Below are positions 1-1,830 of a stretch of DNA of 1,830 nucleotides, one piece after another. The DNA comes from Naegleria gruberi (lineage: Eukaryota), in NCBI GenBank assembly GCA_000004985.1, contig GG739321.1; one strand, 5' to 3'. Positions within the stretch are counted from its first letter, which is position 1. Each line of letters opens with the position of its first letter. The notes beneath the pieces are model-generated. The model was not told the origin of the DNA. It searched no databases and saw nothing but the letters and a program-made list of their open reading frames with translations. The position numbers and the translations under genes are program-made.

Positions 1-982
1 CTAGCAACCGTTGTTTTGGCAGTCCTGGTGGTCCTCTGAAGGCCATAGCCAAAAAATTGTCTCTTGTTTCTTTTGTTACTTCTCCATACTTAGTCAAGTC
101 ATAAACAACAGGGTTGACAATTGAGTTAATTAATTGATCTTTCACATTAGCCATATTAACCAAATTTCTATCTATTTCTTCACTTAATTCAATCTTCAAA
201 GATTTAGCCATTTTCTTTCGTTTATCTCTCTTCTCTTTAACTAACTCCTCTGGATTAGTCTTTTGTAAATACTCTTCGTACAATTCTTTCAAATTGGGTT
301 CAGGGTCCCCATGTGCCTCAATCCAATCAGGATGAGTCTCTTCAAGATCATCATTCATATTAAACCGATCACAAAAGTATTTTCTACACTTTACCCAAGC
401 TCTTTTAAGCTTAGTTTCGTAAAGAGGGTCAATTGTTTCATTCTTCAAACCCGACCATGAAGGATAATAGGTCGCTAAAAACTTATCCCTACGCAAGTAT
501 TCGGTTTGGAGTTTCGTTTCAAATCGTTTTTGGCTACATATATCACTGGTACAACAAAATAATGAGGGTGATTTGTTTGCTACAGCCCTAAACCCGTGAA
601 AAGCAGGGAAAATATGGCAAGAACATTCGTGCTTCTCGTGATTTGGATCACTAGAAGTACATTTTGAATTACAAAGTGGACATAACTCTGGGCAGCCAAT
701 AGAGAATTGACGAAGATGTGTTTTCAGATCATTCAAAGCTTTTTCACTAAAACTTTCCAAAGTCATATCAGTTATGTCTTTTCTATATTGTACAATGATA
801 TACTCAATTAACTGTTCAGAAAATACTTTTGGATCACATATTTTGATTTGATCATGGATTATTTCTTTTGGAAATAATGATTGAATATCGAAATGTGGAT
901 TAAATGGCTTGTTTAGGGTGATGTTCAATTCATTTGAAAGTTGAGTATGAATTTTTTCAAATCTTTCCTTTTCTCCACTCAT
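1..982 (-). CDS. Hypothetical Cys/His-rich protein, N-terminal 327 residues (MSGEKERFEKIHTQLSNELN…GPPGLPKQRLL). The 3' end is off-window (partial). Contains a putative zinc-binding module and a basic K/R-rich segment.
   Basis: Not in the supplied ORF track because there is no stop in the window. I checked all plus-strand triplets beginning at positions ≡2 mod 3 from 2 to 982 and none is TTA/CTA/TCA, so there is no minus-strand stop. ATG at 982..980 is the first start codon after an in-frame upstream stop (TAA at 1048..1046); no ATG/GTG/TTG lies between them. Cys/His pattern at residues 97-149: C97-x3-C101-x2-C104-x3-C108, H115, H118, C120, C122, H123, H129, C143, C144, C149. Confidence 0.85.
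   Translation of the reverse strand, partial: MSGEKERFEKIHTQLSNELNITLNKPFNPHFDIQSLFPKEIIHDQIKICDPKVFSEQLIEYIIVQYRKDITDMTLESFSEKALNDLKTHLRQFSIGCPELCPLCNSKCTSSDPNHEKHECSCHIFPAFHGFRAVANKSPSLFCCTSDICSQKRFETKLQTEYLRRDKFLATYYPSWSGLKNETIDPLYETKLKRAWVKCRKYFCDRFNMNDDLEETHPDWIEAHGDPEPNLKELYEEYLQKTNPEELVKEKRDKRKKMAKSLKIELSEEIDRNLVNMANVKDQLINSIVNPVVYDLTKYGEVTKETRDNFLAMAFRGPPGLPKQRLL
197..244 (-). other. Highly charged basic stretch within gene B (residues ~247-262: LVKEKRDKRKKMAKSL), flanked by acidic residues (EEL… …ELSEEIDRN).
   Basis: Seen directly in the translation. It is a low-complexity K/R/E-rich run, compatible with a flexible linker, a nucleic-acid-contacting patch or a coiled-coil segment. 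Confidence 0.4.
371..694 (-). other. Putative zinc-binding Cys/His-rich module within gene B (residues ~97-204: GCPELCPLCNSKCTSSDPNHEKHECSCHIFPAFHGF…LFCCTSDICSQ…CRKYFCDRF).
   Basis: Seen directly in the translated sequence. Ten Cys and five His in about 55 residues with regular C-x2/3-C spacing typical of zinc knuckle, ribbon or treble-clef folds, plus two further Cys (C199, C204) downstream. Confidence 0.5.
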
Positions 983-987
983 ATAGC

Positions 988-1830
988 TTATAAAGTGTTG
1001 GTAGATGAGATGGGGAACAGTTTCTTGCTGTGTAACACCGAAAAGTTAACAAATAGACCTTTCCATTCCTGAATAGAGTCTACAATTCTGTTCTGTAAAA
1101 CTTCTTTTTGTTCTTCGAATCCTTTTTTGTGATATTTCAGTGCATGTATAACTTTCTCTTTAAAGTCGTCTTCGAATATTTCTGTTAGCAAAGCATTTGT
1201 ATTCAAAGCAAATCGAAGAACGTAAGCCCAATTCTTCTCTTCAAAGCTCATTTTAAAGGCTATCTTAGATGTTGTTTCGGGATCCATATATGTTGTCTTA
1301 AGCTTGCATTCTATATCATCAGTAATTTTTGTTACAATCGATGTGTTAATATGTGATTTCACTTTTGAAATAAACCCATTGGCATGTGTTTCGGCCCATC
1401 TTTTGTCAGTTTGTTGGTTTGCTAAAATTATCGTAAAGGTGTTTCTCATATTAATTTTCATTTCTTTCAATTGGTTTAGAGATTGTTCACAACTCTCTAA
1501 GTATTTTCTGTTGCTACACTCTTTCAAATTTACAAGCAACAATGAAAATAATAAATTGATAAATGCTGCTGTGCTATTAATGGTATGTTCAGTTTTCTCG
1601 ATATAGTTATAAATCAAATTATAAACCTCTATACCTTTATCAAATATAGTATCTATGAAATTGCTATCGATATCAAAAGGAAAATTAACAATAAGCTTTC
1701 CAACAACAACTACTTGCTCCCTAATGAAGGGAATATTTAACACTTCCTTTGGTTGGAAAGCATTGTACAAATTGGGAAGCAAATGCCTGCAACCTATTTT
1801 TTTTCTTGGGAACAATTTCAGCAAGCATTT
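988..1830 (-). CDS. Hypothetical protein, C-terminal 278+ residues. The 5' end is off-window (partial), or less likely the protein starts at TTG 1824..1822. No P-loop or other recognisable motif in the visible part.
   Basis: ORF track shows a minus-strand frame open from 1824 to TAA at 990..988. I reverse-complemented the window end (AAA TGC TTG CTG AAA TTG TTC CCA AGA...) and this frame stays open to the window edge at 1830 (K-C-L-L-K-L-F-P-R-K-K...). The first in-frame ATG is far downstream (…KEMKINM…), so the true start is probably beyond 1830. An uninterrupted ORF of >840 nt in ~67% AT DNA is very unlikely by chance. It has the same orientation as the downstream gene and is tightly spaced to it. 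Confidence 0.8.
   Translation of the reverse strand, partial: KCLLKLFPRKKIGCRHLLPNLYNAFQPKEVLNIPFIREQVVVVGKLIVNFPFDIDSNFIDTIFDKGIEVYNLIYNYIEKTEHTINSTAAFINLLFSLLLVNLKECSNRKYLESCEQSLNQLKEMKINMRNTFTIILANQQTDKRWAETHANGFISKVKSHINTSIVTKITDDIECKLKTTYMDPETTSKIAFKMSFEEKNWAYVLRFALNTNALLTEIFEDDFKEKVIHALKYHKKGFEEQKEVLQNRIVDSIQEWKGLFVNFSVLHSKKLFPISSTNTL
1797..1804. repeat. Homopolymer T8 on the + strand (A8 on the coding strand of gene A, codons AGA AAA AAA ATA encoding R-K-K-I).
   Basis: Counted directly: t1797..t1804, flanked by a1796 and c1805. Confidence 0.9.

What the first reader, a model, noticed from the sequence alone, without database searches (positions are those of the whole stretch)
536..694. 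Dense Cys/His cluster in gene B looks like a dual zinc-binding module and may match the VLIG/URGCP C-terminal signature
Residues 97-149 read C-P-E-L-C-P-L-C-N-S-K-C-(x6)-H-E-K-H-E-C-S-C-H-I-F-P-A-F-H-G-F …(x12)… L-F-C-C-T-S-D-I-C-S. The elements CPxC…C, H-x2-H, H-x-(x)-P-x3-G-[FY] and C-T-S-x-[IV]-x-S resemble what I recall of the conserved C-terminal block of the interferon-induced very-large-GTPase (GVIN/VLIG) and URGCP family. That recollection is uncertain and I cannot verify it here. If correct, it would place a piece of a eukaryote-type immune GTPase architecture in a tightly packed, SD-less, AT-rich two-gene arrangement that looks microbial or viral. If incorrect, it is still an uncharacterised metal-binding domain.
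Basis: partly seen in the sequence, partly recalled or inferred. Interest (0 to 1): 0.6.

Follow-up and report, generated by a model that had tools for sequence, protein, structure and literature searches.

The report
Naegleria giant-GTPase tail, Cys/His module
The cysteine/histidine cluster is real and is the conserved tail module of the "very large GTPase" (VLIG/GVIN/URGCP-type) family, here in a gene fragment of the amoeba Naegleria gruberi, not in a bacterial or viral two-gene operon; it is probably a two-zinc module, but that has not been tested.

Summary
Window 536-694 (minus strand) encodes the 53 residues quoted, with 13 Cys/His against about 4% in the rest of the protein.

The recalled resemblance to VLIG/URGCP is essentially right. 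A profile of this region found 297 proteins. Many are 1,600-1,900 aa and carry the match at their extreme C-terminus. All 13 such long proteins scanned contain the Pfam URGCP-like GTPase domain. Named hits include "Interferon-induced very large GTPase 1" from a sea cucumber and icefish, and a rotifer "VLIG-type G domain" protein.

Eight positions are essentially invariant in 134 members: C-x3-C-x2-C-x3-C-x5-8-H-x2-6-H-x4-H-x20-C. That is enough ligands for two tetrahedral metal sites.

The "microbial or viral two-gene" framing is wrong. The window is an entire 1,830-bp Naegleria gruberi contig (XP_002668103.1). "Gene A" and "gene B" are one coding sequence broken by a frame change at 990-1045. 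The GTPase domain would lie upstream, off the contig.

No solved structure or known zinc-finger family matches. The AlphaFold models are mediocre, and I could not read their coordinates. Zinc binding is therefore inferred, not shown. Modest interest: a new member of a known but poorly characterised family.

The parts
536..694 (-). Cys/His block as flagged (gene B residues 97-149). It holds the eight conserved putative ligands plus five lineage-specific Cys/His.
   Evidence: Translation; enrichment; conservation.
659..694 (-). C97-x3-C101-P-x-C104-x2-K-C108 knuckle. Codons are 692-694, 680-682, 671-673 and 659-661. G96, P102 and K107 are also nearly invariant.
   Evidence: C97, C101 and C104 in 134/134; C108 in 133/134; P102 in 133; K107 in 127; G96 in 126.
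614..640 (-). His triad H115, H118 and H123 (codons 638-640, 629-631, 614-616).
   Evidence: 123, 127 and 134 of 134. One search shows that most apparent losses are shifted His residues nearby.
551..553 (-). C144, the eighth conserved ligand candidate. It lies 20 residues after H123 in nearly all members.
   Evidence: 133/134; spacing table.
311..730 (-). The whole conserved module (residues 85-224): the last part of a preceding helix, the Cys/His block, the invariant W176 (455-457), the AW..CR helix and the PDW motif.
   Evidence: Alignments A2 and A3; local profile alignment; translation; AF2 secondary structure.
2..982 (-). 'Gene B' ORF, 327 codons from the ATG at 982-980. It runs off the contig with no stop codon. 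Residues 72-300 equal XP_002668103.1.
988..1830 (-). 'Gene A' ORF, 280 codons, open at its 5' end, stop at 990-988. It is the helical region that precedes the Cys/His module in the same protein in homologs.
   Evidence: Single BLASTP HSPs of the frame-repaired 610-aa protein span both ORFs, e.g. residues 49-504 against P0047 1170-1606 of 1615. tblastn of P0045 and P0028 gives collinear hits in frames -1 and -3.
990..1045 (-). Zone in which the reading frame changes. The cause is either a 1-nt indel (sequencing error or real mutation; a T-run 'CTTTTC' lies here) or a short intron.
   Evidence: the last frame-2 stop is at 1048-1046 and the frame-0 stop at 990-988. 51 GT..AG pairs would also restore the frame.
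2..310 (-). Extension after the module (residues 225-327), including a Lys/Glu-rich predicted long helix. It is absent from all aligned homologs.
   Evidence: Alignment A2; AF2 helix 244-298.

Best explanation
The window is a small contig of the amoeboflagellate Naegleria gruberi. It carries the 3' third of a single gene for a VLIG/GVIN/URGCP-type giant dynamin-superfamily GTPase.

The flagged Cys/His cluster is the family's conserved C-terminal module, with the signature G-C-x3-C-P-x-C-x2-K-C-x5-8-H-x2-6-H-x4-H-x20-C...P-x-W...A-W. Its eight invariant Cys/His most likely chelate two structural zinc ions (4 Cys and 3 His + 1 Cys in total; which residues share a site is unknown). The zinc would lock a small, otherwise poorly packed loop region onto the C-terminal helices.

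By analogy with GBP-like and dynamin-like GTPases, and with GVIN1 coat formation, the tail module would serve assembly or target binding, while the upstream G domain (not on this contig) drives nucleotide-dependent oligomerisation.

Shown: the sequence, its conservation, its homology to named GVIN1 proteins, its position at the C-terminus of URGCP_GTPase-containing proteins, and the one-gene structure.

Inferred: zinc as the metal, two sites, and the role of the module.
For: Provenance: 100% identity to XP_002668103.1/EFC35359.1 of Naegleria gruberi, on a single contig of 1,830 bases, which is the window length.

Family:
- 297 hits at E<=1e-3, of which 157 at E<=1e-10. Many are 1,600-1,900 aa with the match at the extreme C-terminus.
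- PF25683 URGCP_GTPase scores 67-186 bits against a cut-off of 55 in all 13 long hits scanned. PF25496 URGCP is also present in the Holothuria protein.
- Source names include Interferon-induced very large GTPase 1 (Holothuria, icefish) and VLIG-type G domain-containing protein (Adineta). Other sources are the sponge Oscarella, the glomeromycete Ambispora and the dinoflagellate Polarella.
- Pairwise BLASTP to the Holothuria GVIN1 gives E 3e-8 over the block.

Ligands: eight C/H columns are invariant or nearly so over 134 members, with fixed spacing 3-2-3-(5-8)-(2-6)-4-20. All eight are C/H in 116 of 134, and the rest are mostly alignment shifts.

One gene: single HSPs cross the junction, and tblastn hits are collinear in two frames.

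The eLife/bioRxiv GVIN1 paper describes only an unassigned 'C-terminal domain' after the G domains, and GVIN1 coat formation on bacteria.
Against: - No metal-binding evidence exists. No Pfam zinc family matches in the local library, and no PDB sequence relative matches even with a 48-sequence profile.
- The AF2 models are of low to moderate confidence (mean pLDDT 60.7 and 69.8). Their coordinates could not be inspected, so convergence of the side chains is untested.
- The G domain is not on the contig, so membership rests on the C-terminal ~450 residues only.
- The frame break may mean this copy is a pseudogene.
- URGCP proper and human GVIN1 were not compared directly.
Confidence: 0.8

Rival explanations
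1. One reading: two separate, tightly packed genes of a bacterium or virus, the second carrying a captured piece of a eukaryotic immune GTPase.
For: There are two ORFs in different frames, separated by 5 nt (stop at 990-988, ATG at 982-980). GC content is 33%.
Against: - The contig is Naegleria gruberi.
- Homologs align across both ORFs in one HSP.
- All identified relatives are eukaryotic.
- The signature probe found 0 matches in prokaryotic species genomes and IMG/VR.
Confidence: 0.02
2. The locus is a decayed pseudogene or gene relic. The frame break is real, no full-length protein is made, and the Cys/His module is merely inherited, not functional in Naegleria.
For: - There is a frame change at 990-1045.
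- The contig is a tiny orphan of 1,830 bp.
- The RefSeq model is partial.
- VLIG genes are known from my own knowledge to be pseudogenised often in animals (for example, human GVIN1 was long named GVINP1).
Against: - About 607 codons are otherwise free of stops in a 33% GC sequence, where random frames are full of stops.
- All eight ligands, W176 and the AW..CR motif are intact.
- A single-base error in a T-run or a short intron explains the break equally well.
Confidence: 0.2
3. The conserved cysteines bind an iron-sulfur cluster, or form disulfides, rather than binding zinc. C97-x3-C101-x2-C104 has the CX3CX2C spacing of radical-SAM [4Fe-4S] sites.
For: The spacing is seen directly in the sequence. 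No known zinc fold matches.
Against: - No Radical_SAM or ferredoxin Pfam hit appears even at E<=10.
- The context is a helical tail of a cytosolic GTPase.
- Three invariant His plus a distant Cys accompany the four Cys, which is typical of structural zinc sites (established knowledge of zinc-finger chemistry).
- A CPxC knuckle with a conserved Gly before it is a classic zinc-knuckle feature.
Confidence: 0.08

Closest known systems
Interferon-induced very large GTPase 1 (GVIN1/VLIG-1) of animals
   Same: - The C-terminal Cys/His module is homologous, with identical ligand spacing (C-x3-C-P-x-C-x3-C-x6-H-x2-H-x4-H-x20-C in icefish P0169) and CT[ST]D[IV]xS after the last Cys.
- The module sits at the extreme C-terminus, after a long helical region.
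   Different: - Identity is only about 27% over about 95 residues.
- Animal proteins have 'CPFC..PC' and a different helix after the block (DYWKY...).
- Naegleria has no interferon system.
- The G domain of the Naegleria gene is not on the contig.
- The Naegleria protein continues at least 100 residues beyond the module.
URGCP (up-regulator of cell proliferation) and Pfam PF25683 URGCP-like GTPase domain proteins
   Same: All 13 long homologs of the module that I scanned carry PF25683 above its cut-off. The Holothuria protein also carries PF25496 URGCP.
   Different: URGCP itself was not retrieved or aligned here. PF25683 cannot be tested on the window because that region is missing.
Protist and fungal VLIG-like proteins (dinoflagellate Polarella glacialis and marine-metagenome paralogs, sponge Oscarella, Glomeromycota Ambispora)
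   Same: These are the closest relatives. They share about 30% identity over the module and about 24-26% over about 450 C-terminal residues, including the 'gene A' region.
   Different: The dinoflagellate proteins end about 30 residues after the module and have HH at 122-123 where Naegleria has CH. No relative above about 35% identity was found.
Classical zinc-binding modules (C2H2 fingers, zinc knuckles/ribbons, cross-brace RING/PHD-type binuclear domains)
   Same: The block has a CPxC knuckle, eight Cys/His ligands within about 50 residues, and little regular secondary structure in the block.
   Different: No sequence-profile or fold match to any of them was found. The ligand order C4-H3-C and its spacing do not correspond to a family I can name.

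Membership tests
VLIG/GVIN/URGCP-type giant GTPases | Conserved C-terminal Cys/His module homologous to that of named GVIN1/VLIG proteins | tested here: met
   - Profile hits to Holothuria GVIN1 (E 3.3e-12) and icefish GVIN1-like (E 3.8e-11) in a library of 1.84 billion proteins.
- Pairwise BLASTP E 3e-8.
- Identical ligand spacing.
VLIG/GVIN/URGCP-type giant GTPases | VLIG-type / URGCP-like G domain (PF25683, PROSITE VLIG-type G) in the same polypeptide | not testable with these tools
   The contig ends about 280 codons upstream of the module, and the ORF is open at the 5' end. In homologs the G domain lies about 700-1,000 residues upstream of the module.
VLIG/GVIN/URGCP-type giant GTPases | Collinear helical region between the G domain and the Cys/His module | tested here: met
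   Residues 49-166 onward of the frame-repaired protein align in single HSPs to residues ~1170-1610 of 1,615-1,660-aa URGCP_GTPase proteins P0047, P0045, P0050 and P0079.
VLIG/GVIN/URGCP-type giant GTPases | Precomputed Pfam family of the module (PF26772.1) | tested here: inconclusive
   The protein database lists PF26772.1 for P0001 and for 14 homologs. The model is absent from the local Pfam copy and no paper in the library mentions it, so I cannot say what Pfam calls it.
VLIG/GVIN/URGCP-type giant GTPases | Interferon inducibility / cell-autonomous immune function | not testable with these tools
   No expression data are available. Interferon is a vertebrate cytokine (established knowledge), so this feature cannot apply to Naegleria in that form.
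Known zinc-finger / zinc-binding domain families | Significant sequence-profile match to a curated zinc-binding family or to a solved zinc protein | tested here: not met
   Pfam gave no hit below E 0.03 and none was zinc-related. PDB phmmer and a 48-sequence profile gave nothing significant.
Known zinc-finger / zinc-binding domain families | Fold similarity to a solved zinc-binding domain | tested here: inconclusive
Known zinc-finger / zinc-binding domain families | A set of 4 or 8 invariant Cys/His with fixed spacing | tested here: met
   Eight columns at 92-100% C/H over 134 members. The spacing 3-2-3-(5-8)-(2-6)-4-20 is conserved.
Known zinc-finger / zinc-binding domain families | Demonstrated metal content / tetrahedral geometry | not testable with these tools
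   This needs protein chemistry, or a structure with coordinates. Model coordinates are not exposed.

The most novel reading that the evidence does not exclude
The C4-H3-C module is a previously uncharacterised binuclear zinc fold that defines the tail of all VLIG-type giant GTPases, from Heterolobosea, dinoflagellates and fungi to vertebrates. It is occasionally fused to other NTPases; P0130 carries it next to AAA+ domains. This would mean the 'interferon-induced' giant GTPases descend from an ancient, pan-eukaryotic GTPase whose target-binding or assembly tail is this zinc module. It would be a direct handle for dissecting how human GVIN1 builds its antibacterial coat.
Probability: 0.4. Interest if true: 0.55.

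Novelty: new member of a known kind. Interest (0 to 1): 0.35.

Why it matters
Giant VLIG/GVIN GTPases are the least understood class of interferon-inducible GTPases. The first mechanistic paper on human GVIN1 leaves the C-terminal domain unassigned.

Three findings give testable starting points. The tail carries an eight-ligand Cys/His signature. That signature is invariant from Naegleria to fish. The family is spread across distant eukaryotic supergroups. These suggest metal-site mutants of GVIN1 as an experiment, and they argue that the family predates animal immunity.

For this window specifically, the result is a corrected annotation. It is one interrupted gene fragment of a VLIG-like protein, not two genes, and it is not microbial or viral.

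Tried and rejected
- **Pfam.** The local Pfam scan of both ORFs gave nothing above noise. PF26772 is listed in the precomputed annotation, but it is not in the local library and not in any paper.
- **PDB by sequence.** The single-sequence search gave only weak hemagglutinin HA2 coiled-coil noise (E >= 0.026). The 48-sequence profile gave nothing.
- **Third homolog search.** The third homologous-protein search, with the diverse alignment A3, returned only the two proteins already known. It was wasted. Names for distant hits came from cluster look-ups instead.
- **Searches for related loci.** I replaced it with a degenerate DNA probe for the commonest signature. It found 0 hits in the prokaryote and viral collections. 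The probe is narrow, so this is weak negative evidence.
- **Encoding contig.** The look-up of encoding contigs for P0001 returned nothing on record.
- **Intron or indel.** I tried to decide between an intron and a 1-nt indel at the frame break. 51 GT..AG pairs restore the frame, so it remains undecided.
- **Literature.** Searches for a described zinc module in VLIG/URGCP, or for VLIG in Naegleria, found nothing.
- **Radical-SAM reading.** I considered reading CX3CX2C as a radical-SAM site. I rejected it as the main explanation for lack of any other radical-SAM feature, and kept it as a minor rival.

Full report
**1. What is in the window**

All long ORFs lie on the minus strand.
- One ORF enters from the 5' end of the minus strand (window 1830) and stops at 990-988. 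This is "gene A", 280 codons.
- Five bases later an ATG at 982-980 opens a second ORF in another frame. It runs to position 2 without a stop. This is "gene B", 327 codons.

Window 536-694 on the minus strand translates to CPELCPLCNSKCTSSDPNHEKHECSCHIFPAFHGFRAVANKSPSLFCCTSDIC. The only slip is the gap after HGF, which is 9 residues and not 12.

The segment has 13 Cys/His in 53 residues. The other 557 residues have 22 (3.9%). The binomial probability is about 1e-7.

**2. Where the sequence comes from**

Gene B residues 72-300 are 100% identical to XP_002668103.1/EFC35359.1, "predicted protein, partial [Naegleria gruberi]". That protein is known from a single contig of 1,830 bases, which is the length of the window. 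The window is therefore a whole small scaffold of a heterolobosean amoeboflagellate. The 33% GC content fits this. The sequence is eukaryotic nuclear DNA, so the absence of a Shine-Dalgarno sequence means nothing.

**3. One gene, not two**

I joined the two ORFs into a 610-aa protein by a one-base frame repair.
- BLASTP then gave single HSPs running from gene A through the junction into gene B. Examples are residues 99-520 against P0012 127-524, 49-504 against P0047 1170-1606, and 88-505 against P0045 1216-1609.
- tblastn of P0045 and P0028 against the raw window gives two collinear hits, in frames -1 and -3.

The frame must change between 1045 and 990. A T-run lies in that zone. However, 51 GT..AG pairs (23-398 nt) would also restore the frame. 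I cannot say whether the break is a base-calling error, a real frameshift (pseudogene) or a short intron. In every case the "two-gene operon" is an artefact of reading.

**4. What the protein is**

The first word-indexed search found only one distant homolog. A second search, with the pair as a profile, found 24 homologs at about 30% identity. They are from marine protists, including the dinoflagellate Polarella glacialis.

A profile of these 25 sequences (A2) was run exhaustively against 1.84 billion representatives.
- It gave 297 hits at E<=1e-3 and 157 at E<=1e-10.
- Many hits are 1,590-1,870 aa, with the match at the very C-terminus.
- All 13 long hits I scanned carry Pfam PF25683, "URGCP-like GTPase domain", at 67-186 bits against a cut-off of 55. 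Most also show weaker RHD3 or GBP GTPase matches.

Source names for the hits:

| Hit | Organism | Name given by the source | E-value |
|---|---|---|---|
| P0155 | Holothuria leucospilota | Interferon-induced very large GTPase 1 (1,836 aa; also has PF25496 URGCP) | 3.3e-12 |
| P0169 | Champsocephalus (icefish) | Interferon-induced very large GTPase 1-like | 3.8e-11 |
| P0182 | Adineta steineri (rotifer) | VLIG-type G domain-containing protein | not listed; member of the P0116 cluster (P0116: 2.2e-18) |
| P0042 | Oscarella pearsei (sponge) | transcriptome ORF, no descriptive name | 2.9e-55 |
| P0110 | Ambispora gerdemannii (glomeromycete fungus) | unnamed CDS | 1.3e-19 |

Pairwise BLASTP of gene B against the Holothuria protein aligns residues 84-179 with 1679-1772 (E 3e-8).

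The icefish module reads GCGQQCPFCEVPCEAGGKEHEKHHAAVHRPKGLGGYRKVDSKKLSETLCTTDVNS. The recollection was therefore correct at the level of the VLIG/GVIN family. URGCP itself was not retrieved, so that part rests only on the Pfam domain name.

**5. Which Cys/His matter**

I aligned 134 family members to a profile of the module.
- C97, C101 and C104 are present in 134 of 134.
- C108 and C144 are present in 133.
- H123 is present in 134, H118 in 127 and H115 in 123. Most of the apparent His losses are shifted histidines one to three positions away.
- G96, P102, K107, F128, G130, W176 and W196 are also nearly invariant.
- C120 is Cys in only 76 members. C122, H129, C143 and C149 are not conserved.

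The family signature is C-x3-C-x2-C-x3-C-x(5-8)-H-x(2-6)-H-x4-H-x20-C. That makes eight ligands, the number needed for two tetrahedral sites. Which four go together cannot be told from sequence alone.

**6. Structure and known folds**

- AF2 on gene B with the 25-sequence alignment gave mean pLDDT 60.7.
- AF2 on the trimmed module (residues 48-240) gave mean pLDDT 69.8 and pTM 0.57, with 61-77 in the Cys/His block. The predicted layout is two helices, a mostly irregular Cys/His region with short strands, and then further helices.
- Coordinates are not exposed, so I could not test whether the side chains converge.
- PDB sequence searches found nothing, either with one sequence or with a 48-sequence profile.
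- The local Pfam library has no model for the module. The precomputed annotation lists PF26772.1, which I could not identify.

The module has no solved relative and no match to any zinc-binding family in the libraries I could search.

**7. Mechanism**

The best-supported reading is a structural two-zinc module that caps the C-terminal helical region of a dynamin/GBP-like giant GTPase. The basis is threefold:
- eight invariant Cys/His with rigid spacing;
- a G-C...C-P-x-C knuckle;
- little regular secondary structure in the block.

Its role is inferred, by analogy with GBPs and with human GVIN1, to be assembly or target binding. Human GVIN1 forms a coat on Burkholderia, and its "C-terminal domain" is left unassigned in the paper.

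An Fe-S cluster is a minor alternative, because C-x3-C-x2-C is also the radical-SAM spacing. No other radical-SAM feature is present.

**8. Distribution**

Identified relatives are all eukaryotic: animals, a fungus, dinoflagellates and Naegleria. A degenerate DNA probe for the commonest form of the signature found no match in 185,579 prokaryotic species genomes or in IMG/VR. The probe is narrow, so this is only weak negative evidence. I found no paper in the library linking VLIG to Naegleria or describing the zinc module.

**9. Verdict**

- The "dual zinc module" is plausible but unproven.
- The microbial or viral two-gene framing is refuted.

The finding is a new, fragmentary and possibly pseudogenised member of a known but poorly characterised family. 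Its interest is modest. It lies mainly in the invariant eight-ligand signature and in the wide eukaryotic spread of a family usually thought of as interferon-induced.

Noticed in passing
window 990-1045 (minus strand): The reading frame changes here between the two ORFs. A T-run (CTTTTC) lies in the zone, and 51 GT..AG pairs could also restore the frame. The cause could be a sequencing error, a real frameshift or a short intron; this is undecided.
   Followed up: partly
window ~82-84 and 2-310 (minus strand): The RefSeq model XP_002668103.1 starts at Met72 and stops at ...KYGE, where GTAACA follows (a possible splice donor). The ORF itself stays open to the end of the contig. Residues 244-298 form a Lys/Glu-rich predicted long helix that no homolog has.
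   Followed up: partly
P0130 (1,587 aa; hit): Here the Cys/His module sits at the N-terminus (residues 14-214) and is followed by three AAA+ ATPase domains, with no URGCP_GTPase domain. Either the module is mobile between NTPase families, or two neighbouring genes were fused in the gene model.
   Followed up: partly
P0039 cluster (3,641-3,936 aa, JGI): These are giant proteins with a kinase fragment, a URGCP_GTPase domain and the module in mid-protein (1396-1851), followed by about 1,900 further residues. Some members are named serine/threonine protein kinase by their source.
   Followed up: no
window 671-694 (minus strand), residues 97-104: C-x3-C-x2-C has the same spacing as the radical-SAM [4Fe-4S] motif. 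No other radical-SAM feature is present, and there is no Pfam hit.
   Followed up: partly
homologs P0002-P0030: The closest relatives form a large group of near-paralogous sequences from marine metagenomes and transcriptomes, one named for the dinoflagellate Polarella glacialis. This suggests a big expansion of VLIG-like genes in dinoflagellates.
   Followed up: no
gene B residues 50-114 (window ~641-835): There are weak PDB sequence matches to influenza hemagglutinin HA2 (E 0.026-1). I take these as helical or compositional noise, not homology.
   Followed up: no
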